Virus record (IMG/VR): IMGVR_UViG_3300017780_003812
Span: 1 to 49,523 of that record
Source of the DNA: a virus
Lineage: Duplodnaviria > Caudoviricetes
Direction: 5' to 3' (one strand)
DNA: 49,523 nucleotides
Position numbers and translations under genes: made by a program. The notes below the pieces were generated by a model that did not search any database, was not told the origin of the DNA, and saw nothing but the letters and a program-made list of their open reading frames with translations. Below are positions 3 through 42,542 of this stretch, one piece after another; the stretch's first letter is position 1; every line of letters starts with the position of its first letter.

Positions 3-1205
3 TTAAGACGTAAGAGTAAGAGACTATCCAACTCAATGCTTATTGATGTGGCGAGTATATCGGCAAATAACGATAGGGAGATAGGGAAGATTATAGCTGA
101 GGTGTACAAAGATGTGGGTAAGACCGGGATTGTTACAGTTGAGAAGAGTCAGACTGATGAAACTTATGCTGAGACCACGTTAGGATTGAAATTCGACAGA
201 GGTTACTTGAGTCCTATGTTCATAAATGATTCCAAGAAGGATGAATGTGTCTTTGAAGACACTATGGTCTTGGTTGCTGATATGGAGATTACTAATATTC
301 TTCAGATTGAGAACATATTGAAACCAATTGTTTCCGAAGGAAAAAAACTGTTAATCATTTCTCCTTGTGGTCAGAACTTAATCAATAGTTTGGCGGCAAA
401 TGTTGTCAAAGGAAACATAAAAGTGTGTGCAGTTCCTCCTCCGGGATTCGGATACAAGCAACACGAGTTGATGTATGACATCGCAATCAGTGTTGGAGCT
501 ACCTATTTCAGTGAAAAGACCGGGGATGACCTAAGTATTATCAATTACGGAGACCTTGGGCACGCTGCTAAGGTAATTGTGAGCAAGGATAAGACCGTTA
601 TCATCAAGTCAGACCTGAAATTAGACCAATCTGCTGTTGAGGAAAGGGTAAATCAGCTATGGGATGCCCATAAAAACGCCATAAAGAAGCACGATAAGGA
701 CTTTATTTTGGAAAGAATAGCTTCATTAACGGGTGGAATTGGGGTAATTTTTGTTGGTGGACAGACAGATTTGGAGCAAAAAGAGTTATTTGATAGAGTC
801 GATGATGCTGTTTGTGCAGTGCGTTCTGCACTCGAAGAAGGGATTCTTCCGGGTGCAGGAAAGGCTCTTCTTGAAGAGAGTGCTGCTCTATGTATAGATG
901 AGGACAAAAGTGATGAGTATAATGCGGCTGTGATGATTTTGAAGGGGGCACTTATGACTCCGTTCTTGCAGATACTTGAGAATGCAGGACTGAAGGCTTC
1001 TGAAATCTACAAAGATGGAGTTGCTGAAGGGCACGGTTACAACTTGAAGACAAGAGAGTTTGGAGACCTGATTAAGATGGGAGTAATTGACCCGCTTAAA
1101 GTAACACGTTCAGCATTGCAGAATGCAGTGAGTGTAGCTGTAACAATCTTGAGCACTAACGCCATAATTACGTTAGCTCGTTCTTATGTGCAGGCTGAAG
1201 ACTAA
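3..1205 (+). CDS. groEL: Phage-encoded chaperonin GroEL (5'-truncated by window edge)
   Basis: GroEL motifs 'GLKFDRGYLSP', 'ERIASLTGG', 'RVDDAVCAVRSALEEGILPGAG', 'GVIDPLKVTRSALQNAVSVA'; frame is open back to position 3, so the gene starts upstream of the window; no GGM tail. Confidence 0.95.
   Translation, partial: LRRKSKRLSNSMLIDVASISANNDREIGKIIAEVYKDVGKTGIVTVEKSQTDETYAETTLGLKFDRGYLSPMFINDSKKDECVFEDTMVLVADMEITNILQIENILKPIVSEGKKLLIISPCGQNLINSLAANVVKGNIKVCAVPPPGFGYKQHELMYDIAISVGATYFSEKTGDDLSIINYGDLGHAAKVIVSKDKTVIIKSDLKLDQSAVEERVNQLWDAHKNAIKKHDKDFILERIASLTGGIGVIFVGGQTDLEQKELFDRVDDAVCAVRSALEEGILPGAGKALLEESAALCIDEDKSDEYNAAVMILKGALMTPFLQILENAGLKASEIYKDGVAEGHGYNLKTREFGDLIKMGVIDPLKVTRSALQNAVSVAVTILSTNAIITLARSYVQAED
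247..263 (-). repeat. Dispersed 17-bp palindromic element, copy 1 (reverse orientation, inside groEL)
   Basis: gtgtctttgaagacact is the exact reverse complement of AGTGTCTTCAAAGACAC. Confidence 0.9.
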
Positions 1206-3835: not shown

Positions 3836-4026
3836 TGGCTAAAGAAAAAGACACTCCGAATTTACCGGGTTCATCTCGTATGCAGATGCCAAGCACCGGT
3901 GGAAATGGTACTAACGGGTTAATTCAAGAACACGGTGGTATGGCAAACAGCAGCAAAGGCGTAACTAAAAGAATTTTAACCGCTGCAAAAGGAACGGGAA
4001 TGAAAGGAAAAAATCCTTATTGTTAA
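3835..4026 (+). CDS. Small basic protein with TPNLPGSSRMQMP motif
   Basis: TAATG coupling; paralogous N-terminus with the preceding ORF. Confidence 0.75.
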   Translation: MAKEKDTPNLPGSSRMQMPSTGGNGTNGLIQEHGGMANSSKGVTKRILTAAKGTGMKGKNPYC

Positions 4027-12628: not shown

Positions 12629-12856
12629 ATGGATATTAGAAAAATATCAATCGGACCTGACTATAAAAGTGGTGCAATGCATTACATAATAGGTCAAAAA
12701 ATTCTTGGAGATTCAAACGAGATTCATCATATTAAACGACAAGCGGAAACGGGAAACGTATTAATTTATATTATTAATAAAAAAGAAGAGATAGTTCTAT
12801 GGAAAGAGTTTACCTTTGCTATTCCAATTTCAATCGAATTTAATATAGACTTTTAA
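12629..12856 (+). CDS. Conserved phage hypothetical protein
   Basis: 'IRKISIG.DYK..AMHY..GQ'; start context aaatcaaatcaaATG. Confidence 0.8.
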   Translation: MDIRKISIGPDYKSGAMHYIIGQKILGDSNEIHHIKRQAETGNVLIYIINKKEEIVLWKEFTFAIPISIEFNIDF

Positions 12857-13419
12857 TGAAATCTCCATTCTACTTCATAGTAAAACCTATGAATGGAAAG
12901 CGTTATGATAATACAAAAGACATAGGAGTAACTGATTTTATAGTTAGTACTTCAGAAGAAGACCATAAGTTTTCTAATAGATATGCAGATGTTATCGAGC
13001 TTCCCATAGGTTATAGTGGTCCTATCACAATAGGAGACACTCTTCTTGTACACCACAACGCATTCAAGTATTACAATGATATGAGAGGTCGTCAAAAAAG
13101 TGGCAAGAGTTTCTTTAAAGATGACTTATTCTTTATAGATACAGACCAATTCTTTATGTATAAAAAAGGTTCTACTTGGAATGCTTATGATAAGTATTGC
13201 TTTGTTAGACCTATTTCTGCTACAGAATACTATATAGAGAAATTTTGTGCCGAAGAACCTTTAATAGGGCAAATGGTATATCCAAACGAATACCTTTTAG
13301 GTAAAGGAATTAAAGAAGGAGATTATGTCTGCTTCTCTCCCGACAGCGAATATGAGTTCACTGTTGATGGAGAAAAACTATATCGTATGTATGACCACCA
13401 AATAACAGTAAAGCTATGA
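12856..13419 (+). CDS. GroES-like (tandem Cpn10-fold) protein
   Basis: Two GroES-like halves: 'FIVKP...IGDTLLVHH' and 'CFVRP...GIKEGDYV.F...EYEF.VDGEKLYRM'. Confidence 0.6.
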   Translation: MKSPFYFIVKPMNGKRYDNTKDIGVTDFIVSTSEEDHKFSNRYADVIELPIGYSGPITIGDTLLVHHNAFKYYNDMRGRQKSGKSFFKDDLFFIDTDQFFMYKKGSTWNAYDKYCFVRPISATEYYIEKFCAEEPLIGQMVYPNEYLLGKGIKEGDYVCFSPDSEYEFTVDGEKLYRMYDHQITVKL

Positions 13420-18975: not shown

Positions 18976-20082
18976 ATGGAAATGAAAGTAAGATTATTAG
19001 ATGGTACAGAAGAAAAAGGAGTTGCTCAAGTTGAACAAGAATTAATTGAGAAACACGAACAACAATTTTCTGATGTTAAAATTCCCGGGCAAGAAACTAT
19101 TGTAGTAGATATTCCCGTAGTAGATGTTCCTGTAGTAGATACTGACAATGAATTAAGTGAAGAGCAAGTTCTTTCATATATTGGAAAAAGATATAATAAG
19201 CAGATTAATTCATTAGATGAATTAACAGCTCAAAGGGAAGAAGCCGAGGCTTTACCTGAAGATGTTGCTGCTTATATGAAATATAAAAAAGAAACAGGTA
19301 GAGGTTTTGAGGATTTTTTGAGTCTTAAAAAAGATTTTGACTCAATGGACCCTGAAAGTTTACTTAAAAATTATTTATCAGCAACTCAAGAAGGACTTGA
19401 TGCTGATGACATTGATTCTTTAATGGATGATTATCGTTATGACGAAGATGTTGATGACGAATCACACATTAAAAGAGTTAAGCTTACAACAAAAAAGGCA
19501 ATTGTCGAAGCTAAAAAGTTTTTTAATTCTCAAAAAGAAAAATACCAAGTGCCGCTTGAGTCAAGCACTGCATTTGTTTCAGATGAGGAAAAAGAAAATT
19601 ACGAAAGCTATAAGCAATATACCAAGCAATCGAAGACTATTGAAGAAGAGAATGAAAGAAAAAGAAATTGGTTTAACCAAAAATCTGATGAAGTGTTTAG
19701 CGGAGAGTTCAAAGGTTTTGAGTTCAATGTTAATGACAAAAAAATCACTTTCAATCCCGGAAATGCTGCTGACCTTAAAAGAAACCAATCTACTCCTGCA
19801 AACTTTATTAATAAGTTTTTGGATGAGCAAGGTTTGATTAAGGATGCCGCAGGTTATCATAGGTCATTAGCGGTTGCTATGAATCCTGAGAGCTTTGCCC
19901 GGTTCTTTTATGAACAAGGACAAGCTGATGCAACTGAAGGTACTATGAAAGGTATTAAGAACATTAATATGTCTGAACGTAGAGCACCTGAAGTTACAAA
20001 AACAACGGATGGAATGCAGGTAAAAGCGATAAATCCTGATTCAGGTAGAAGTCTAAAAATTCGCAGTATAAAAAGAGTATAA
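18976..20082 (+). CDS. Putative capsid scaffolding protein
   Basis: Acidic, helical, between portal and major capsid. Confidence 0.65.
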   Translation: MEMKVRLLDGTEEKGVAQVEQELIEKHEQQFSDVKIPGQETIVVDIPVVDVPVVDTDNELSEEQVLSYIGKRYNKQINSLDELTAQREEAEALPEDVAAYMKYKKETGRGFEDFLSLKKDFDSMDPESLLKNYLSATQEGLDADDIDSLMDDYRYDEDVDDESHIKRVKLTTKKAIVEAKKFFNSQKEKYQVPLESSTAFVSDEEKENYESYKQYTKQSKTIEEENERKRNWFNQKSDEVFSGEFKGFEFNVNDKKITFNPGNAADLKRNQSTPANFINKFLDEQGLIKDAAGYHRSLAVAMNPESFARFFYEQGQADATEGTMKGIKNINMSERRAPEVTKTTDGMQVKAINPDSGRSLKIRSIKRV

Positions 20083-30133: not shown

Positions 30134-30946
30134 ATGAATTACACATTATCATATAGCGAAGGGGTTGCCGGTTGGGTATCTTTCTATTCTTATTATCCTG
30201 ATTGGATGATTGGAATGAACAACTATTTTTATACTTTTAAAGGTGGGAATCTTTACAAGCACAATGTAAATAATTTAAGAAATACATTCTATCAACCTTG
30301 GTGGACTCAGTATATGCAGCCTGCAAATGCTTTCACACCAACATCTATTCAAACGGTATTTAATACTGCTGCCATTGAAAATAAATTATTTAAAACCATA
30401 AACATAGAAGGAGATGCCCCTTGGGGAGCAACTTTAGAGACTGATTTGCAAGTTTCAGGATTTATAGACCAATCTTGGTTTGAGAAAAAAGAAGCGGCTT
30501 ATTTTGCGTTTGTTAGAAATAACAGTATTGGAGAATTTGCACTTAGAAGTTTAAATGGAATTGGTAGAAGTTTTCAAGTTACAGGAGGTGTTGTAATTAA
30601 GTTCTCAATTAACCCATTAATATCTATAGGAAACATAATTAGTATTGGAGATTTAATTTATTTCTTTCAACCTCCTGCAAATACGCCTTTGCTTGCAGGA
30701 AAGGTAACAGCGGTTACAGTTGATTATCCAAATAACTTAAACCAAATAACAATTACAACCGTAGTTCCGGGAGCTATAGTAACTCCAATAACTACGCAGA
30801 ATGCTTATTTCTTGTACGTTAAAAATTCTGTAGCTGAATCTCACGGTGTTTTAGGACACTATTGTACAACTACATTATCTAATAATTACAATAGTAAAAT
30901 TGAGTTATTTGCAGTTGAAGCTAATGTAATGAAAAGTTTCCCTTAA
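30134..30946 (+). CDS. Tail protein resembling the C-terminal part of the muzzle protein
   Basis: 'TLSYSE...GWVSFYSY.P..M', 'KLFKTI.IEG', 'G..GHY...L.N....ELF'. Confidence 0.7.
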   Translation: MNYTLSYSEGVAGWVSFYSYYPDWMIGMNNYFYTFKGGNLYKHNVNNLRNTFYQPWWTQYMQPANAFTPTSIQTVFNTAAIENKLFKTINIEGDAPWGATLETDLQVSGFIDQSWFEKKEAAYFAFVRNNSIGEFALRSLNGIGRSFQVTGGVVIKFSINPLISIGNIISIGDLIYFFQPPANTPLLAGKVTAVTVDYPNNLNQITITTVVPGAIVTPITTQNAYFLYVKNSVAESHGVLGHYCTTTLSNNYNSKIELFAVEANVMKSFP

Positions 30947-33959: not shown

Positions 33960-36900
33960 ATGAACGAGAAATATTTACAAGACTTATATGCTTTGATAAA
34001 ACAAAAAGACTCTTCCTATGAAGGAAGATATTCTTACGAGCAATTCAAAACAAAAATTCAAGATGATGCTTACGCTGAGCAAATGCACAGTTGGCTTTCA
34101 ACGAATGATGAGTCTTTTAAGCAAAAACCTTTAGAGACATTTATCGGAGAAGTAAAAGGTGGTAGAAGACTTGTTACAGCTCAAAAAAAAAAGTTTTCAT
34201 TGGACTCAGAAGTACCTCAGCAGGGAAAAGCAGCTTCTACGGGATTATCCTCGGGAAATGGTTCTTTGGCTACTCAACCTACGAGTAAAAAAGTTTTTGC
34301 GGCAGATAAACGTATATCAAACAGTTTATCTACCATCAACCAAGACCTTATGAACGACACGGAAGAGAATGTCGTTTCCAAATTATCTAAGGACAAAAAC
34401 TTTAAAGAGTTAGGATTTTCTTTTGAAGAGTCAGGTTTTATGGGAGACTATATGACTGTTACTGCTCCTAATGGGCAGAAAAAAGAAATTTCATTAGACA
34501 ATTTTTTAAATAGCAAATCTGCTGCACAATCAGTAGAACTGAAAAATTTCATAAATAAGAATACCACTAAAGAAAAAAAGGCAAATCTCGAAGAGATTGC
34601 TTATATAGAAGATACTAATGCTCAAAAATTACAGTCCGAAAAGAAAAAACTTGGTCAGCAATTTGTTAAAGAAGGTGCTAAACCTATTGACAAAAAAAAT
34701 AGCAAATATCTTAACGACAGATTAAAAACTATTGATGCTAAATTGATTAATCAAAATGAAGAATATATTGTTCCTCAAATGAATTATCAGTTTGGAGATT
34801 TAGGTTTTAAATTTGAAGAGTCAGGTATGACAGGAGACTATATGATTGCCACTGCTCCTAACGGAAAAAAAATGGAGATTTCTTTAGACCCTTTTATGAG
34901 TTCTAAAGCTGTTTCTGAATCTTCAAAACTACAGCAATTTATAAAAGAAAACACTTCCGATAAAGGACTTTATATTGTTGAGAAATCAGCAAACGAAGGC
35001 TACCAAAAAATAGAAAATCAAAAACAAGTCGATACTTCTATTAAAAAAATATCAGATGAAGCCAATTCTTTGAACAATGATTTAAAGGCTTTTCTTTCAA
35101 GAAAAAATGCATTAGATAGTACTTTTCAAAAAGGAAGCGAAGGATATAATAAAATGCAAGCAGAGTTAATTGCAGAAAGAGATGCTTTAATTAAAAAACA
35201 AAATAATCTAAAAACTAAGGAAGTTCTTCTTAAAAAATCAGTTGGAAAATATACTGAGATGAAATCTCAACAAGGTACTTATTTAGCAGGTACTTGGAAT
35301 GCGTTTTTAGATGCGTATGCAAGTGCATCAGCAGGACTTGCTGATTTATCAACTGATATTATGGTTGAACTTACTCCAACTGAAGCACTAATGCTACCTG
35401 AAGATTTGAAAAATGAATCAGTTGGTATTGCTAAAAAATTAGGTATTAAAGGTCCATCTGCTAACCAAACTTTTGCTCAATGGAAAAAAACTTTAACAGA
35501 AGACCAATTGGATGATGTTGAAGATGAGATTGACGATGCTGCAAAAAAATATGCAAAGAAAGATTTAATTCCTGCTATTAGACAAGGTAATAGACAGGTT
35601 TTCGGAAGCTCTACTGCTACTCCTGAATGGGAGCAATTACAATCAGAGGATTTTTGGGCAGGTTCTTACTTTGGTCTTGTAAAAACAATACCTGCACTTG
35701 CAGGTGCGGCAGGACCGGCAGGTTGGACACAGAGAACAGCTACTATGTACTCAATGGTAAGTGATGGTATTAGACAAGAGATGGATAAAAATCCTGAATT
35801 TGCAAAGGTTTCTGAAAATGAAAAACTTGCAGTAGTATTACCTATTGGTATAACAGGAGCTGTATTGGAAGAGTTTGGTTTGAGAAATATAAAAGGAAGT
35901 ACAGGTTTAATAAATAGAATAGCAATGAGTGCTCTTGGTAAATCAGGAACACGAACTACTGCCAAGTCATTTAGAGAACTTGTAGAAAACGAAGTTGAAA
36001 GTAAGTTAGCCAAGGGAGTTCTTACTATTACATCTGCCGGTCTTGCTGAGTTTGAATCAGGTGCAGGTCAAGAACTTACCGAAACAGGAATCAAAGAGAT
36101 ATACAATGTAATAAAAGATAAAGAAATGTTCAATACTCCTGACAGCATAGGAGACTTGATTAACAACGTAGTAAAAGCAGGTGCACAAGAGGCTGTTGGT
36201 GGTTTTGTATTGGGTATGCCTACTGCTGTAAGTGCAGCTTATTCTCAAAAAGGATTTCTAAATATGGATAATCAAACTTTTAGATTATTTGAAGATGCGG
36301 CAAACGATGAAAATATTCAAAAAGCATTTATAACTGATTTAAAAACAAAAATAACTCAGGGAGTTATGACTACAGCTGAGGCTAAGGAGCAGTTAAATGA
36401 CTACCGTAACTCAATTGGTTTATTTAAGTCTTTACCTGAGGGGCTAAATACTCAACAAAAAAAGGAAGCGATGAATCTCTTGAAAGAAAAAAGAGATTTA
36501 GAAAATCAAGTAGATGGCAAAGACCCTTCTTTAGTTGTAAAATTAAAAGAAAGAATTGGTGTTATAGACGCTTCTCTTGTTGGAATATCTGAAACCGCAG
36601 CCAATGACAAAGCAGTAGCTGAATCAAACAGAAAAGAGTTTGAAGACTTACCTGATGCAGAAAAAACAAAGCTAAAAGAAGAGGCAGGGAAGAATATAAT
36701 GGATATGATTGGCGATAGAAACGACCAAGATATTGAATTAGATGATGAAACATTAACTGAGTTTGCTTTTAAAGATTTTGTAAAACAAAAGGAGAACAAT
36801 AATAGAATAGCTGAAATAGAGGCTACGCTATCTCCTGATGCTGAAACACCGGTTGTAGGAAGAGCTAAAAGAAAATTAGAAAAAGAATTAGGAAAACTTA

Positions 36901-39900
36901 AAAACACACAAGATGCCATTCAAGAGCAAAGCACAACAGAGATTCCTGTACAGTCAGAAACCGGAGTTAGCGAAACGATGGAGGGAGGAACATCCGAAAC
37001 AAAACCTGAAATCATTACCGAACAAACTACGCAAGGCGAAGTAACTCAAACTATCATCGAAAACATTAAAAATGATTTTGAAAATAACAATCTAAACAAT
37101 ATTGAATTGACTCCAACAAGAGAAGGTTTTGATGGAGATTTTCTTAATGATTATGAGTTTTTAGCAGAAGGCAGCGAACATACTGTATATAAAAGCAAAG
37201 ATGGTAAAACTGTTATAAAAATAGGAGAGCCTTATAGTAGTAATGATGGGTTTATGCCAAGGGTAGAAGATGCTATATCTATAAATAACTTAATAGGGGA
37301 TAATAGTTTAGAACTAATAGGTTATTATGAATATAATGGAGTTACAAATCCTGTATATCAACAAAATTATATAGATGGTACAACTCTTACTCAAGCAGAA
37401 GCTACTTCTCATTTAGAATCAAAGGGATTTACTAATTTAGGAAATGATAAATTTGCTATAAAAGTAGGAGATAAAATATTTGAAATATCAGATACTTCAG
37501 ATAATTTTATAAGAGATAATAACGGAAACATATCTGCTATAGATGCAGGTATAAGAGAAATAAATGAAAGTGATTTAACCGAAAGTCAAAAACAAGAAGT
37601 GTCTTCAAAGACACAACCAACAGAAACAGTAAATGTTGAAGCACCAAAAACTACATCTGTTAAAGATGTGTCTGTACTTATAACTCCTGCTACAGTGCGT
37701 GGATTCAGTCCACTTACTGAAAGGATTAAGAAGTTGTCATTAAACTATGACAAACTTGTTAAGCAATACGCTAAAAAGAAAGACCCTAAGGTTCTTGCTA
37801 AGATAAAGAAAATTGAATCACAAATAACTGATGTAGCAAAACAAGAGATTATTGATGCAGTAGCAGACATAAAAGGAGTAGAAGTTACATTTAAAGATAC
37901 CAATCGTGGATTATGGGATGGTAAATTTGAGCCATCTTTTAATATGAACTTGTCTATTAGCCCTGATGCAGATACTCAAAAGGTTAGTGATATGCTTTAT
38001 GATTTTTCTGAAAAATACTCTCAAGATGCATTTATATTAGAAACTGAATCTGAATTACACGATGAATGGATTAATGGCAACGTAGATATGCCTCTTACTG
38101 AATTTTATGATAATGATTTAATGCATTATCCAAAAATTATTTATACCTTTGCTGAACCAATAACTGACGAACAAGTAGCAGACTTGTCTGTATCGTTAGA
38201 AAATGAGGGAGTTGATGCATTTAGCATCAATAATAATCAAGTTGAAGTATCAGTAATTACCTTTTTACCTGAAAATAATAATCTAACTAAAGATGAGCAA
38301 TACAATGAAAAATTTAAAGACTTCCAATCAAAATCAAGTGCAACCGCAAATGCAATCGGGCAAACACTCGGAAGTAATGCGTTGGATGGACGCAATGTTA
38401 TTATCAAAAAATCTTCTTACCAAGGAGCAATCAACGAAGGAACCGAAGACCAAACAAGACAATACGATAGAAGTAATGTTCTTGAAGCGTTCCAAGAACC
38501 AACCACAAAAGTAGAAGAAACTACAACTGAAGAATTAGGTACACAAGGATTATCTGAAGCTGAACTACCGGGATATGACCGAATGATGGGGATAGTTGAT
38601 GGTATAACTCAGAAGATACTTAAAGAAAGAGGAGGAACAAATGAAAGAGCATTTCAAGCAGCTCTTGATTATCTTCAACAAGACTCTAAAGTTTATGAGA
38701 ATGCTACAGATGTTCAGAGAGAGGCTTTAGTTCGCCAATTGCGTAAGCAATTTGGTATTAAAGAAAAGAGAGCACCATCAGTAGCAAGAATATTTGGTAA
38801 ATTGAAAGACATTAGAAAGGTAATAATGACTGAAAGAGTTGCACTTAACAAGCAATTTAAAGACCAAATTAGAGGTGGTAAATATGCTGTTAAGGCTGTA
38901 AAAGAAGCTACTCAAGCCTTAATAAAAGAGGTAAGAGAACTAAGAAAGTCAGGTAAAATAAACAAGATTCAAGAGCAAGCCATTCTTAATAGATTAGGAA
39001 ATACAAATGTGCTTAGTGAAAAATCTACAAGAAGATTTATTGAATATGCAACAAAGGTATATAACAATGCTGACTACGCTCAGAAGTTAACTGATGCTCA
39101 AAAACTAAGAAAGAAAATCAGAAGTTTATCTCGTGATAAAACAAAAGATGCTAACCTACGTGATTTAGCTGCTAAATTTGGAAAATTAGACCCTTCAATT
39201 GCAAAAAGCATTGAAGTTTATAATGATGTGGCGGCTAAAATAAAAGAGGCTATAGATGGCTCTAAAATAAGCGGTCAGAATGTAAGGTTTGCAAATACTG
39301 TGAATATTCAAGATGCCACTGAATATATTAATGTAGAAGAGAAATCTCAAGCAGATATAATCCGTGATGAAAGAATTGCTGATTTGCAAGACTTGATGGG
39401 TGTAGATGCTTCTACTTTTACTGAGGCTGAAATGATGGCTCTGTTAGAGGAAGATAAACCAATGACAGATAAAAATGAGGGTATAGTAAGAGACACTATT
39501 AAGACAGCTTTTGAGATTTATTCTGCAATGATACAAAACAGTATAGATACCGGAGTAGATGCGTTCACAGGCGAAGATGTTGAATACACTAAGAGAGAAA
39601 AAGAAATCATCTCTAAGTTTATGGCTATGGACCCGAACAATATGACCACTAAAAATGCCCTTGCAGCAGTTGATGCACTTGCTAATTTTATAGAGAATAA
39701 ATCAACAGCTTCTATGGATGCTGTTACATCTATATACGAAGGAGACCAAAACGCTGAGATTGTTTTAAGAAAAGGAATTAAAGCTATTCAGATTAAAAAA
39801 TATTTTTCTAAGCAACTTGGTAGAACTTTCGCAGAACAAACTACCAACTTAAATATTGTTTTTGAAAAAATGTTTAAAGGGTTTAATCGTGGTGGCGAAG

Positions 39901-42542
39901 TTCAAGATTTAATGGGATTAACAAAATTGATTAATAAAAAAGCATTCGCACAAACGCAATCAAATAATATTATAAATGATTACGTTAAAGCGTTTTACAA
40001 TAAAGATGTACGACCAAATGGGCAGAAGTTTAATACAGCAGAGAACAATACCGAAAGAGGTATGGCTGCGTTTATGCTTAGAAATGTTATTGGAACTGAG
40101 CAAGAAATGCAAATCGAGTTCGGAAGAAGAAAAGGATTAATAGAACAATCTATCGCAGCTTTAAGAAAAGGAAACGAAAAAGAACAAAAGAAAGCAGAGC
40201 TATACCAAAAGGTATATGAAAAGGTAATTGGCAATTCAGCGGATATTCAAGACATAAAAGACAATACTGACCCTAAAAACTTAGAGGCTATTGATTTTTG
40301 GCACAAGCAATGGGATAATCAATTTGATAGATTGTCAGATGTAGCTCTTAATGTTTATAACAAAACTTTAGATAGAGACTTAAATTACTCCCCTGATAAA
40401 TACGTTAGAATGGATAGTGCTCCACAAGATGTTGATTTAACAAATAGTGATTCAGCATTTATATATAATACAAACGGTGTATTGTACAATAAAAAAACAG
40501 GAGTATTAGAAGATACAACAGGTACAAAAAATCTTCCAATGAATGCGAAGAAAGATGTATTGAGTTATATTGACTTATCTTTTGATAAAAACAACTCTAA
40601 CTCTATGTACGATGCACTTATAGATATTGAGACCGCAGCTTCAATTAGACAAGTACAGGCATTCTTAAATTCTAATAGCTTTAGTAAAATAGTTCCAAAT
40701 ACTGAGGATGCAAAGCTACTTACTAACAGAGTTCAATTGTATGTTGCTAACACAAGAAACAAAAACCCTTATTCAAACGATGAGCTTTCTAAGGCAGTTA
40801 GAAGACTAAATAAAATAGCGACACTTGGTGTTGGACAAGCCTTGGGAGGACCTACTCAGGTACTTAAACAATTTGTTCCGGTTGCTATGAACACTTGGGT
40901 AAATGCGGGAACCTTTAGTTTAACAGCATCTTTCAATTCTGATTTTAATAATTGGATTTCTCAGTCAGGATATGCCATTGCCAATAGAGGTATTGAATCT
41001 CAAGCAGAAGTTGAATCAATTAATAAATTAATTGAAGAGGCATCAAACTCTAATGCAAAAAGAGCGATGGAGCTTATTGAAGAGGCAAATAGAAAATGGT
41101 TAAAAACATTCTTAGTTAGACCCGATGTTGCTGTAGCAAGAGCTTCTTTCAAGGCTTACTATGAGAAGTCTTTGAAGCAACAAGGTAAAGACTATAAGGA
41201 TATTGATTACTCTGACCATACACTAAATGAGACAGCAGCAAACTATGCTCAAAGAATGGTAGATAGACAGCAAAACGTATCTGACCACGATTTAGCAGGA
41301 AGTTTATTTTCTTCTAAAGAAACAGGTAAGCAAGTGCTTACTAAGATATTTATGGCTTTTGCAAGTTTTAGAATGAACCAATCATCAAGATTAGGTGCTG
41401 ACCTTTCAACATTAGGATATTGGGGTGTTTCAACTAAAGAAGATAAAGTTATTGCAGCAAGGTCATTAGCGGGTTATGCAGCGGAGATGGCTACGTTTAG
41501 AATGATGTCAGCCGGTATTACTATATTAATAGGATATGCTGCTGCTGCTATAATGGGCAAAGAGGAGACAGAGGAAGAAGAAGATAAAAGAATTGATGGT
41601 GTATTAAAAGGTCAAGCTACATCTGTAGTTACAGATATTTTTTCTCCACTACCTATTCTTGATAAACTTGTTCAGACCGGAGCTGCAAATTTCTTATCAG
41701 AAGTTCAAGATGCTTTAGATATGGATGAAGAAGATAGATTATCTTTGTACTCAGCCAAGCCTGAGGAGTTTATAAAATACCTTGGGATGTATGGTATAGC
41801 TCCTGATAGAGCGATGCAGTTTTTCGGAATGGTAAAATTATGGGCTACGGGAACATATAAAGATGATTTCAATAAAGAACACACAATATCTGAACAAGAT
41901 AGAGAAGCAGTAGGGGTTTTATTAGGTCCTGCTTTCTTGACCAACATTGGAATATTCCCTCCCGAAGTAGCAGGTGCTATTAGAGGTTCTATAAAAATGG
42001 CTAAAAAGAAACAAACATCTTTTGAGGAAAGACAAGCTAAAGAACAAAAGAGAGTTAAGAAGGAAGAGGAAGATGCTAAAGAGCTAAAAATACTTGAGGA
42101 AATAAGTATAGATACTTCTGACCCTGAAAAACTTGATTTAATACAAGACCAAATCCAAAGACTTTCTAATGAAACAGAAGCCGAGGCTGACGAAAGAAAA
42201 GCTAAGAACAAACAAATCAAAGAAGAAAAAGCTAAACTTTTAGGAGATTATGCAAACGAAACGCAGATGAAAAGGTATGACCGACCATTATGGGAGGATA
42301 CTTTTGGAGATAACTCTGAGTGGTATAATACATACAGAGAAGAAAAACTACTTCAAAAAGAAGTAGATGATGCAATGCAAAGAACTGAAGATGAAGAACG
42401 TAATTATACTCCTGTAGGAAAAGAAAAGTATAGTTTTGGACCTCAAAGTAAAAAATCTAAAAGTAAAAAATTTGGATTTGGACCTCAAAGTTTTGATAGC
42501 CAAGAATCAGATAGTGATTATAAATTCGGACCTCAGAAATAA
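33960..42542 (+). CDS. Giant (2860 aa) internal virion / polyvalent protein with kinase-like domain
   Basis: Last gene of the structural block; two TAPNG repeats; kinase-like segment 'LAEGSEHTVY...VIKI...NFIRDNNGNISAID'; no RNAP DxDGD motif seen. Confidence 0.75.
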   Translation: MNEKYLQDLYALIKQKDSSYEGRYSYEQFKTKIQDDAYAEQMHSWLSTNDESFKQKPLETFIGEVKGGRRLVTAQKKKFSLDSEVPQQGKAASTGLSSGNGSLATQPTSKKVFAADKRISNSLSTINQDLMNDTEENVVSKLSKDKNFKELGFSFEESGFMGDYMTVTAPNGQKKEISLDNFLNSKSAAQSVELKNFINKNTTKEKKANLEEIAYIEDTNAQKLQSEKKKLGQQFVKEGAKPIDKKNSKYLNDRLKTIDAKLINQNEEYIVPQMNYQFGDLGFKFEESGMTGDYMIATAPNGKKMEISLDPFMSSKAVSESSKLQQFIKENTSDKGLYIVEKSANEGYQKIENQKQVDTSIKKISDEANSLNNDLKAFLSRKNALDSTFQKGSEGYNKMQAELIAERDALIKKQNNLKTKEVLLKKSVGKYTEMKSQQGTYLAGTWNAFLDAYASASAGLADLSTDIMVELTPTEALMLPEDLKNESVGIAKKLGIKGPSANQTFAQWKKTLTEDQLDDVEDEIDDAAKKYAKKDLIPAIRQGNRQVFGSSTATPEWEQLQSEDFWAGSYFGLVKTIPALAGAAGPAGWTQRTATMYSMVSDGIRQEMDKNPEFAKVSENEKLAVVLPIGITGAVLEEFGLRNIKGSTGLINRIAMSALGKSGTRTTAKSFRELVENEVESKLAKGVLTITSAGLAEFESGAGQELTETGIKEIYNVIKDKEMFNTPDSIGDLINNVVKAGAQEAVGGFVLGMPTAVSAAYSQKGFLNMDNQTFRLFEDAANDENIQKAFITDLKTKITQGVMTTAEAKEQLNDYRNSIGLFKSLPEGLNTQQKKEAMNLLKEKRDLENQVDGKDPSLVVKLKERIGVIDASLVGISETAANDKAVAESNRKEFEDLPDAEKTKLKEEAGKNIMDMIGDRNDQDIELDDETLTEFAFKDFVKQKENNNRIAEIEATLSPDAETPVVGRAKRKLEKELGKLKNTQDAIQEQSTTEIPVQSETGVSETMEGGTSETKPEIITEQTTQGEVTQTIIENIKNDFENNNLNNIELTPTREGFDGDFLNDYEFLAEGSEHTVYKSKDGKTVIKIGEPYSSNDGFMPRVEDAISINNLIGDNSLELIGYYEYNGVTNPVYQQNYIDGTTLTQAEATSHLESKGFTNLGNDKFAIKVGDKIFEISDTSDNFIRDNNGNISAIDAGIREINESDLTESQKQEVSSKTQPTETVNVEAPKTTSVKDVSVLITPATVRGFSPLTERIKKLSLNYDKLVKQYAKKKDPKVLAKIKKIESQITDVAKQEIIDAVADIKGVEVTFKDTNRGLWDGKFEPSFNMNLSISPDADTQKVSDMLYDFSEKYSQDAFILETESELHDEWINGNVDMPLTEFYDNDLMHYPKIIYTFAEPITDEQVADLSVSLENEGVDAFSINNNQVEVSVITFLPENNNLTKDEQYNEKFKDFQSKSSATANAIGQTLGSNALDGRNVIIKKSSYQGAINEGTEDQTRQYDRSNVLEAFQEPTTKVEETTTEELGTQGLSEAELPGYDRMMGIVDGITQKILKERGGTNERAFQAALDYLQQDSKVYENATDVQREALVRQLRKQFGIKEKRAPSVARIFGKLKDIRKVIMTERVALNKQFKDQIRGGKYAVKAVKEATQALIKEVRELRKSGKINKIQEQAILNRLGNTNVLSEKSTRRFIEYATKVYNNADYAQKLTDAQKLRKKIRSLSRDKTKDANLRDLAAKFGKLDPSIAKSIEVYNDVAAKIKEAIDGSKISGQNVRFANTVNIQDATEYINVEEKSQADIIRDERIADLQDLMGVDASTFTEAEMMALLEEDKPMTDKNEGIVRDTIKTAFEIYSAMIQNSIDTGVDAFTGEDVEYTKREKEIISKFMAMDPNNMTTKNALAAVDALANFIENKSTASMDAVTSIYEGDQNAEIVLRKGIKAIQIKKYFSKQLGRTFAEQTTNLNIVFEKMFKGFNRGGEVQDLMGLTKLINKKAFAQTQSNNIINDYVKAFYNKDVRPNGQKFNTAENNTERGMAAFMLRNVIGTEQEMQIEFGRRKGLIEQSIAALRKGNEKEQKKAELYQKVYEKVIGNSADIQDIKDNTDPKNLEAIDFWHKQWDNQFDRLSDVALNVYNKTLDRDLNYSPDKYVRMDSAPQDVDLTNSDSAFIYNTNGVLYNKKTGVLEDTTGTKNLPMNAKKDVLSYIDLSFDKNNSNSMYDALIDIETAASIRQVQAFLNSNSFSKIVPNTEDAKLLTNRVQLYVANTRNKNPYSNDELSKAVRRLNKIATLGVGQALGGPTQVLKQFVPVAMNTWVNAGTFSLTASFNSDFNNWISQSGYAIANRGIESQAEVESINKLIEEASNSNAKRAMELIEEANRKWLKTFLVRPDVAVARASFKAYYEKSLKQQGKDYKDIDYSDHTLNETAANYAQRMVDRQQNVSDHDLAGSLFSSKETGKQVLTKIFMAFASFRMNQSSRLGADLSTLGYWGVSTKEDKVIAARSLAGYAAEMATFRMMSAGITILIGYAAAAIMGKEETEEEEDKRIDGVLKGQATSVVTDIFSPLPILDKLVQTGAANFLSEVQDALDMDEEDRLSLYSAKPEEFIKYLGMYGIAPDRAMQFFGMVKLWATGTYKDDFNKEHTISEQDREAVGVLLGPAFLTNIGIFPPEVAGAIRGSIKMAKKKQTSFEERQAKEQKRVKKEEEDAKELKILEEISIDTSDPEKLDLIQDQIQRLSNETEAEADERKAKNKQIKEEKAKLLGDYANETQMKRYDRPLWEDTFGDNSEWYNTYREEKLLQKEVDDAMQRTEDEERNYTPVGKEKYSFGPQSKKSKSKKFGFGPQSFDSQESDSDYKFGPQK
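36913..37044 (+). CDS. Nested (+1 frame) 43-aa gene MPFKSKAQQRFLYSQKPELAKRWREEHPKQNLKSLPNKLRKAK
   Basis: ATG 36913 to TAA 37042-37044 inside the giant gene; A-rich upstream context; resembles stand-alone MPFKS..Q.R...P..A..W small phage proteins. Confidence 0.7.
   Translation: MPFKSKAQQRFLYSQKPELAKRWREEHPKQNLKSLPNKLRKAK
37598..37614 (+). repeat. Dispersed 17-bp palindromic element, copy 5 (inside the giant gene)
   Basis: agtgtcttcaaagacac, exact. Confidence 0.9.

What the first reader, a model, noticed from the sequence alone, without database searches (positions are those of the whole stretch)
36913..37044. A complete small gene overprinted inside the 2860-aa protein gene
Seen: in the +1 frame, ATG at 36913 (after aaaacttaaaaacacacaag, a Bacteroidota-type A-rich leader) to TAA at 37044 encodes MPFKSKAQQRFLYSQKPELAKRWREEHPKQNLKSLPNKLRKAK. 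I recognise this as resembling small basic phage proteins of the form MPFKS.[AK]Q.R[FY]...P..A..W that occur as stand-alone genes; this is from memory, not a search. The host frame here is an acidic linker (DAIQEQSTTEIPVQSETGVSETMEGG) with atypical codon use, as expected if it is the by-product of the nested gene. It lies just upstream of the kinase-like domain. Inference: a dual-coding locus whose nested product could be a virion protein, or an inhibitor or partner of the adjacent effector domain.
Basis: partly seen in the sequence, partly recalled or inferred. Interest (0 to 1): 0.85.

Follow-up and report, generated by a model that had tools for sequence, protein, structure and literature searches.

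The report
Small gene hidden inside giant gene
A 43-codon gene for a very basic little protein lies intact, in a shifted reading frame, inside a 2860-codon phage gene and is conserved there across many related phages; it belongs to a large unnamed phage protein family that likely works inside the virus head, and nested copies like it are left unannotated in the public phage records opened.

Summary
Confirmed. The ORF at 36913-37044 lies in the +1 frame of the 2860-codon gene. It belongs to a large unnamed phage family (3256 clusters at 50% identity) that also occurs free-standing and as an N-terminal module. Relatives found without using the peptide carry it intact and nested (11 of 14 and 16 of 16 loci). 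Across the overlap the host gene's wobble position is the most conserved (0.77, against 0.48 in a control block), so selection acts on the small frame; the acidic linker is probably its by-product. Cultured Flavobacterium phage elemoA_7-9A has it, unannotated; other phages nest it in the scaffold-like gene. The neighbouring Kinase-PolyVal domain is real but unlinked (2 of 79 relatives), so the partner/inhibitor idea fails. Best guess: a late, basic protein loaded into the prohead. Support is indirect: head-gene neighbours, a distant fused variant found in virions, one particle spectrum for Patience gp10. Translation of this copy is not shown. This scan reported the same kind of nested gene before on other genomes (at least seven notes); my library searches found no paper on it. 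A second candidate nested ORF lies at 38293-38514.

The parts
36913..37044 (+). Nested gene, 43 aa, +1 frame of the giant gene; basic two-helix protein of the 'MPFKS' family
   Evidence: ORF; family; intact in relatives; selection on this frame; model, mean pLDDT 85, helices 6-15 and 17-26
36893..36912 (+). A-rich leader without Shine-Dalgarno, putative internal translation start
   Evidence: A at -3 in 86% of 64 distinct nested copies and 27 of 33 host-ascertained copies; rank 5 of 135 out-of-frame ATGs; unstructured (z -0.02). Use is not shown.
36912..37046 (+). Host-frame acidic linker (about residues 985-1029 of the giant protein), read from the same bases
   Evidence: Host amino-acid identity 0.48 against 0.66 for the nested frame in 11 host-ascertained loci; L208 lacks both the nested ORF and the linker
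33960..42542 (+). Giant gene, 2860 aa, last + strand gene of the virion module; polyvalent-type cargo protein (inferred)
   Evidence: ORF; terminase, portal and virion-protein families upstream; Kinase-PolyVal; PMC5512222 passages
35640..36569 (+). Conserved host block (residues 561-870) upstream of the nested gene; used as control and as independent query
   Evidence: Codon-position identity 0.73/0.82/0.48; the nested gene starts 8-12 residues after this block in 34 of the 37 relatives that match it, about 115 residues after it here
37149..37556 (+). Kinase-PolyVal domain (PF18762) of the giant protein; variable cargo, not linked to the small gene
   Evidence: E 3.8e-13, 50.2 bits; present in 2 of 79 relatives
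38293..38514 (+). Second candidate nested ORF, 73 aa, +1 frame, different sequence; status open
   Evidence: Open with matching start region and stop in 12 of 12 aligned loci, one identical to the window; P about 0.003-0.005 under synonymous recoding; no Pfam or Atlas hit
18976..20082 (+). Scaffold-like gene between portal and the probable major capsid gene; carries no nested copy here, but its homologues do in other phages
   Evidence: one family copy in the window; 31% identity over 277 aa to host L116; 14 such hosts; 0 of 80 close homologue loci have a copy. 'Scaffold' rests on position and acidity (phrog_16786, unknown function).

Best explanation
This is a conserved second reading frame under its own purifying selection, and it is likely translated from an internal start on the late mRNA into a small basic protein that is probably loaded into the prohead, where it would bind the acidic assembly core or the packaged DNA. 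Shown: the ORF; its family; its retention in independently found relatives; selection on its frame; free-standing, fused and nested forms; nesting in two different kinds of host gene; no link to the neighbouring kinase. Inferred: translation of this copy (about 0.9); that the small gene is the older frame and was taken into low-constraint acidic stretches of virion genes because its -1 frame reads as a tolerable acidic linker once stops are purged (about 0.8); that it moved between scaffold-like and giant genes more than once (about 0.7); that the protein is an internal head component, its fused forms acting like a capsid-targeting leader (about 0.5).
For: Retention without using the peptide as query: 11 of 14 loci found with an upstream host block, 16 of 16 found with a downstream cargo domain, and one match each in 16 of 32 records chosen by the scaffold gene, all 16 nested, 4 of 4 among records at least 90% complete. 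Selection: identity by host codon position 0.59/0.72/0.77 in the overlap against 0.73/0.82/0.48 in the control block; third minus first position +0.18 against -0.32 to -0.18 in 25 control windows. Both frames kept open: codon 3 is TTC in 30 of 30 nested copies but TTT, which makes a stop in the host frame, in 25 of 46 free ones; 42 of 46 free copies have a stop in that frame. Contigs of other phages match only about 36910-37044, with loose ends at the ATG and the stop. Cultured example: intact 42-codon copy inside elemoA_7-9A gp21, unannotated. Repeated moves: AU test rejects one clade for 14 scaffold-nested against 23 giant-nested copies, p 0.00085. Head role: 20 of 47 free-standing loci have a portal, terminase, capsid, scaffold or other head-and-packaging neighbour, against 3 tail, 7 other named, 17 unnamed (my tally); Indlulamithi gp3 and Patience gp10 lie just after the portal gene; 67 of 70 long relatives carry the module at the N-terminus; a variant begins phAPEC6 gp161c, found in virions with 6 peptides (PMC7247149 Table 1) and CBB_322, annotated structural; phiKZ 165.1 ends shortly after an S-x-E triplet, the phiKZ prohead protease motif (PMC5694885 passages); Patience gp10 is expressed and listed as a virion protein (PMC4324244).
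Against: Patience gp10 has only 1 particle spectrum (4 at 30 min, 2 late), and it is distant (18.7 bits with one profile, 0.4 with another). 201phi2-1 gp383, a clear member (34.8 bits), is not marked as found in virions although its neighbour gp382 is. The virion-detected fusions score only 11-14 bits against the core profiles, no better than the best of 2000 shuffles; the link runs through gp383. phiKZ 165.1 is a single-gene transcription unit on the strand opposite its neighbours, which the authors read as individually acquired (10.1101/2023.10.13.562163, one passage), and Orion gp76 lies far from head genes. The neighbour tally has no baseline and head genes are the best annotated. L208, 79% identical upstream, lacks the gene at this site (record 41% complete). 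The tree rests on 48 columns. In the pooled, more diverged host-ascertained set the frame contrast is weaker (0.64/0.68/0.57 by nested position).
Confidence: 0.55

Rival explanations
1. The gene is real and packaged, but its job is after injection: a small basic effector that binds a conserved host target (nucleic acid, ribosome or polymerase) together with the giant cargo protein.
For: Sits inside a polyvalent-type gene, a class proposed to be packaged and injected (PMC5512222 passages); the family spans phages of very different hosts and capsids, which fits a universal target; Patience gp10 has more spectra at 30 min than in particles.
Against: Free copies cluster by portal, terminase and capsid genes and nest in the scaffold-like gene; the N-terminal fusions join it to many unrelated proteins, as a leader would. 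At a multiplicity of 100 the 30-min sample also holds many virion proteins.
Confidence: 0.2
2. The protein is a late assembly helper that binds the scaffold or portal during prohead building and is cleaved or released, so it is not in mature virions.
For: Same neighbourhood evidence as the best explanation; weak or absent virion signal for Patience gp10 and 201phi2-1 gp383; possible protease motifs just after the module.
Against: K/R-rich 5-8 kDa proteins give few usable tryptic peptides (general knowledge), so low counts say little; fused partners are found in virions.
Confidence: 0.15
3. The nested product is a partner or inhibitor of the adjacent Kinase-PolyVal domain.
For: Adjacency in this genome.
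Against: Kinase in 2 of 79 relatives; 33 clusters of downstream sequence among 75; a cargo domain 94% identical to this window's goes with a different, cysteine-bearing subtype of the peptide (L327); scaffold-nested and free copies have no such neighbour.
Confidence: 0.03
4. The conservation is at DNA or host-protein level (a recombination anchor for cargo swapping, or a linker motif), and the small frame is not translated.
For: The site is a fixed hinge between conserved and variable parts of the giant gene and a DNA similarity island between phages; start context only moderate.
Against: Changes fall on the small frame's wobble position (entropy 0.40/0.22/0.86; changes silent for the small frame 3.2 times expected, a set chosen by the peptide; for the unbiased set); the island ends at ATG and stop; the same protein exists as ordinary genes. 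A side role as recombination anchor is not excluded.
Confidence: 0.05

Closest known systems
Embedded spanin genes (lambda Rz1 inside Rz; PMC6139136, passages read)
   Same: A small gene wholly inside a larger one, same strand, shifted frame, with its own start; the shared DNA encodes a flexible linker of the outer protein; often missed by annotation.
   Different: Rz and Rz1 form one complex; here the small gene shows no fixed partner domain in its host. That survey found no family with both embedded and separated members; this family is embedded in two kinds of host gene, free-standing and fused. No lipoprotein or membrane features in the 43-aa sequence.
phrog_1375 / phrog_5320 (Patience gp10, Orion gp76, Indlulamithi gp3) and phrog_16759 (201phi2-1 gp383, phiKZ 165.1), all of unknown function
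   Same: Shared short basic core; many free relatives match phrog_1375 weakly; gp383 and Indlulamithi gp3 score 29-48 bits on profiles built here.
   Different: The window's peptide itself matches no PHROG at E<=0.01 and no Pfam family above cut-off; the cultured members listed are free-standing.
T4 capsid targeting sequence and internal proteins; propeptides of giant-phage head proteins (PMC5694885, passages read)
   Same: Works-like comparison: a short N-terminal module on many unrelated proteins, with possible protease motifs after it, and small head-internal proteins.
   Different: No sequence or fold similarity found; the module is about 40 residues against 10-20; targeting and cleavage untested.
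Polyvalent proteins (PMC5512222, passages read)
   Same: The host gene is a giant, late-region protein with a Kinase-PolyVal domain and a variable cargo region, as described for Bacteroidetes phages.
   Different: A word search of that paper's main text found no occurrence of 'overlap'; nested genes were not seen in the passages read.
Embedded out-of-frame ORFs of mycobacteriophage Patience (PMC4324244, section read)
   Same: Mass-spectrometric precedent that phage ORFs wholly inside annotated genes are translated.
   Different: Those ORFs were poorly conserved and had no relatives; this one is conserved and has thousands.

Membership tests
Embedded (nested) protein-coding gene | Complete ORF wholly inside another gene, in a different frame | tested here: met
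Embedded (nested) protein-coding gene | Purifying selection on the inner frame | tested here: met
Embedded (nested) protein-coding gene | Outer frame kept open across the overlap | tested here: met
   80 of 80 loci; TTC in 30 of 30 nested copies
Embedded (nested) protein-coding gene | Translation of the inner frame | not testable with these tools
   No raw RNA reads or proteomics for this phage
Overprinted de novo gene (small frame new) | Inner frame has the narrower distribution and no outside homologues | tested here: not met
   3256 clusters, free-standing genes in unrelated cultured phages; criterion from PMC8227390
phrog_1375 / phrog_16759 small basic proteins | Profile match | tested here: inconclusive
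   No direct match of the window peptide; relatives match; members score on profiles built here
DUF3008 (PF11450) | Pfam match | tested here: not met
   No match for 65 aligned members or 30 variants; only an Atlas lead at 0.85, 15% of one cluster
Two-component spanin (o-spanin) | Lipoprotein signal with lipobox cysteine, inside an i-spanin gene of the lysis cassette | tested here: not met
   The 43-aa sequence has no cysteine or hydrophobic stretch; host is a 2860-aa virion-module gene
T4-like capsid targeting sequence / internal head protein | N-terminal on diverse head proteins | tested here: inconclusive
   N-terminal in 67 of 70 long relatives; head location known only for distant variants
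T4-like capsid targeting sequence / internal head protein | Removed by the prohead protease; sufficient to package a passenger | not testable with these tools
   Motif counts only; needs experiments
Polyvalent protein (host gene) | Two or more polyvalent-type domains in one late-region protein | tested here: inconclusive
   One domain, Kinase-PolyVal, above cut-off; the other seven segments had no Pfam match above cut-off

The most novel reading that the evidence does not exclude
A roughly 40-residue basic module is a widespread, unrecognised head-loading device of tailed phages: a leader that carries unrelated cargo into the prohead when fused, and a tiny internal head protein when alone. In this phage group its gene behaves as a portable frame-hidden cassette that has settled more than once inside other virion genes, writing their acidic linkers as a by-product and marking the hinge at which cargo domains are swapped.
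Probability: 0.3. Interest if true: 0.82.

Novelty: new variant of a known kind. Interest (0 to 1): 0.62.

Why it matters
Nested genes in phages are known, but the classic cases pair two fixed partners. Here one old, very widespread protein family occurs free, fused and nested in different host genes, which gives a natural series for studying how overlaps arise by capture of an existing gene and not by invention of a new one. It also means that a recurring acidic 'motif' of giant virion proteins and scaffold-like proteins is probably the shadow of a hidden gene, and that a conserved gene is missing from the annotation of the two nested records opened (elemoA_7-9A and ctfjg026). Cultured carriers (elemo phages for the nested form; Patience, phiKZ and phAPEC6 for free and fused forms) make the function directly testable. 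If the module loads cargo into heads it would be a general counterpart of the T4 targeting sequence.

Tried and rejected
Pfam and PHROGs gave no family for the peptide itself; PDB by sequence gave one chance-level hit; fold searches of solved structures gave nothing usable (best E 6.7; best Z 2.8), which does not show the fold is new; the viral structure library returned uncharacterised proteins, best E 5.5e-3. DUF3008 was considered from the Atlas lead and not confirmed (no paper holds the term). The synonymous-recoding null is uninformative for the main ORF (open in 27%) because the host residues are themselves shaped by the small frame. No internal promoter excess (1 site against 3.1 in shuffles) and no structure at the start. 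Elemo gp21 shows no pairwise BLAST similarity to the window's giant protein at E<1e-3, so its homology is not shown; only a 136-aa neighbour matches. L164 (frame running into a terminase-like ORF), L088 (GC-rich), L117 and L128 were set aside as unclear and not counted as nested or free, except that L117 stayed in the neighbour tally. K-x-A follows the module in 37 of 67 fusions against 81 of 652 background windows, but that stretch is lysine-rich, so the count is not relied on. phiKZ 165.1 was not found in the held supplements of PMC10449902, one file of which is cut. A complex prediction with the probable capsid and scaffold-like proteins was not available, so binding is untested. Supplements of the bioRxiv transcription paper could not be seen and may give timing for phiKZ 165.1.

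Full report
Observation. The window is a 49.5-kb virus record. Its + strand carries terminase, portal and virion-protein genes and ends in a 2860-codon ORF at 33960-42542. Contigs from two other studies span the locus without a difference. A profile search of all six frames finds one family copy in the window.

The family. Twelve called proteins of 42-67 residues match among 13 candidates. A profile of these 13 sequences finds 3256 clusters at 50% identity (E<=1e-3); of 147 newly listed, 70 are 100 residues or longer, and 67 of those carry the module at the N-terminus. The peptide has no Pfam or PHROG match of its own; many relatives match phrog_1375 weakly. Free-standing annotated members include Indlulamithi gp3, FlowerPower gp48 and 201phi2-1 gp383 (29-48 bits), and more distantly Patience gp10 and Orion gp76. 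AlphaFold gives two short helices (6-15, 17-26; mean pLDDT 85); no solved structure matches.

Nesting is conserved. With the peptide alignment as query, 80 of the 80 kept IMG/VR loci (136 found; one identical to the window) have the ORF complete, 41-63 codons, in the +1 frame of a long ORF. Because that set is chosen by the peptide, I used three queries that do not touch it. An upstream host block gave 14 loci besides the window's twin: 11 intact, one cut before the site, one broken near a contig end, and one (L208) lacking both the ORF and the acidic linker. A downstream cargo domain gave 16 of 16 intact. Of 32 records chosen among the 80 scaffold-gene loci for their length, 16 have one match, all nested; the other 16 are 25-66% complete; 4 of 4 records at least 90% complete have it. 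The cultured Flavobacterium phage elemoA_7-9A has an intact 42-codon copy inside gp21, not annotated; 68 elemo records match, one was opened.

Selection is on the small frame. In 11 host-ascertained loci (one the window's twin), identity by host codon position is 0.73/0.82/0.48 in the control block but 0.59/0.72/0.77 across the overlap; third minus first position is +0.18 against -0.32 to -0.18 in 25 control windows; amino-acid identity is 0.66 in the small frame and 0.48 in the host frame. The peptide-chosen set shows the same more sharply; the pooled set of 33 more diverged cores shows it more weakly (0.57 against 0.43). The host frame is also protected from stops: codon 3 is TTC in 30 of 30 nested copies, TTT in 25 of 46 free ones, and 42 of 46 free copies have a stop in that frame. 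Contigs of other phages align only over about 36910-37044. The start context is moderate (rank 5 of 135).

Three architectures. A DNA pattern scan estimated about 1200 matching stretches. Of the first 80 loci with long flanks, 16 are nested in long ORFs, 14 near the N-terminus of a roughly 400-residue protein homologous to the window's scaffold-like gene (31% identity), 46 are free or fused, and 4 were set aside. In a further 36 records no second copy was reported (35 with one match, one missed). Scaffold-nested copies do not form one clade against giant-nested ones (AU p 0.00085, 48 columns), so the gene probably moved more than once. By the distribution criterion (PMC8227390, passages) the small gene is the ancestral frame. 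The linker is then the new sequence; the reverse of 'overprinted'.

The kinase is not the partner. Kinase-PolyVal is confirmed at 37149-37556, a domain described in polyvalent proteins of Bacteroidetes phages (PMC5512222, passages). But it occurs in 2 of 79 relatives, and what follows the small gene falls into 33 clusters among 75 loci. The constant feature is upstream: the gene starts 8-12 residues after a conserved block in 34 of 37 relatives that match the block. It marks the hinge between conserved and variable parts.

Function. Among 47 free-standing loci, 20 have a head-and-packaging neighbour, 3 tail, 7 another named function, 17 none named (my tally, three nearest ORFs of 120 codons or more per locus, no baseline). 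Indlulamithi gp3 and Patience gp10 follow the portal gene. Patience gp10 is listed as a virion protein, on 1 particle spectrum, 4 at 30 min and 2 late (PMC4324244, passages and Table S1). A variant typified by 201phi2-1 gp383 matches the first 56-60 positions of two PHROGs named virion structural protein and begins phAPEC6 gp161c, found in virions with 6 peptides (PMC7247149, Table 1 in part); that link is transitive, the direct scores being at shuffle level. phiKZ 165.1 ends shortly after an S-x-E triplet, the phiKZ protease motif given in PMC5694885 (passages). Against: gp383 is not marked as virion-detected, phiKZ 165.1 is a lone opposite-strand transcription unit (10.1101/2023.10.13.562163, one passage), Orion gp76 lies away from head genes. 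I put a head-internal role at about 0.5, an injected effector at 0.2, a transient assembly helper at 0.15.

Comparison and novelty. It works like other embedded genes, with Rz1 in the Rz linker the closest architecture; that survey found no family both embedded and separated (PMC6139136, passages), whereas this one is nested in two kinds of gene, free and fused. It is not a spanin and not a de novo overprinted gene. Library searches for a description found none (listings and abstract starts only; subscription journals are largely missing). This scan's own notes report the same kind of nested gene on other genomes at least seven times; they are unchecked and are not counted as support. Verdict: real feature, new variant of a known kind, interest 0.62. 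That the host is a Bacteroidota bacterium is inferred from the elemo match, the leader style and the kinase domain's described range; it was not tested.

Noticed in passing
window 38293-38514 (+): Second +1-frame ORF (73 aa) at the end of a cargo domain; open with similar start and the same stop in 12 of 12 aligned loci of 52-100% identity; host third-position identity rises to 0.81-0.83 over 38421-38540 against about 0.65 upstream, with one other 0.85 window at 38121. N/Q-rich +1 ORFs also occur in L209 and L217.
   Followed up: partly
L001 8001-8129; L002; L211; L302-L304; L316-L321; L116, L118, L139, L146: A cysteine-pair subtype of the peptide occurs in both giant and scaffold-like hosts, and goes with cargo domains up to 94% identical to this window's (L327), suggesting exchange at this site.
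   Followed up: partly
window 35625-35762 (+), host residue 556: A 44-56 codon ATG-started ORF in the +2 frame at the matching place in the window, L208, L215 and L217; may be a shadow of a conserved host segment.
   Followed up: no
window 19427-19837 (+): 136-codon, very basic +1-frame ORF inside the scaffold-like gene; no PHROG match; conservation not examined.
   Followed up: no
L164 (- strand, match at 3898-4026): Family member with a Shine-Dalgarno-like leader whose -1 frame runs on into a terminase-like ORF; possible third kind of host gene or a chance open frame.
   Followed up: partly
window 36-1205 and 12856-13419 (+): Phage-encoded GroEL-like (phrog_5725) and GroES-like (phrog_13932) genes.
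   Followed up: no
window 30134-30946 (+): Match to the crassvirus muzzle C-terminal domain PF25729 above cut-off.
   Followed up: no
L307 2882-3945 (Patience genes 111, 10, 11, 12): Patience gp10 sits in a run of small, very K/R-rich proteins after the portal gene; gp111, gp11 and gp12 have 30-33 particle spectra each.
   Followed up: no
L003 5001 and L006 5001; Gordonia phages: Free-standing copies in phage C75C1, S-CBS2 and several Gordonia phages lie in unannotated gaps.
   Followed up: partly
window 37050-37090: The 81 bases around and after the nested stop fold better than shuffles (z -2.9, -8.5 kcal/mol); one of three stretches tested, meaning unknown.
   Followed up: no
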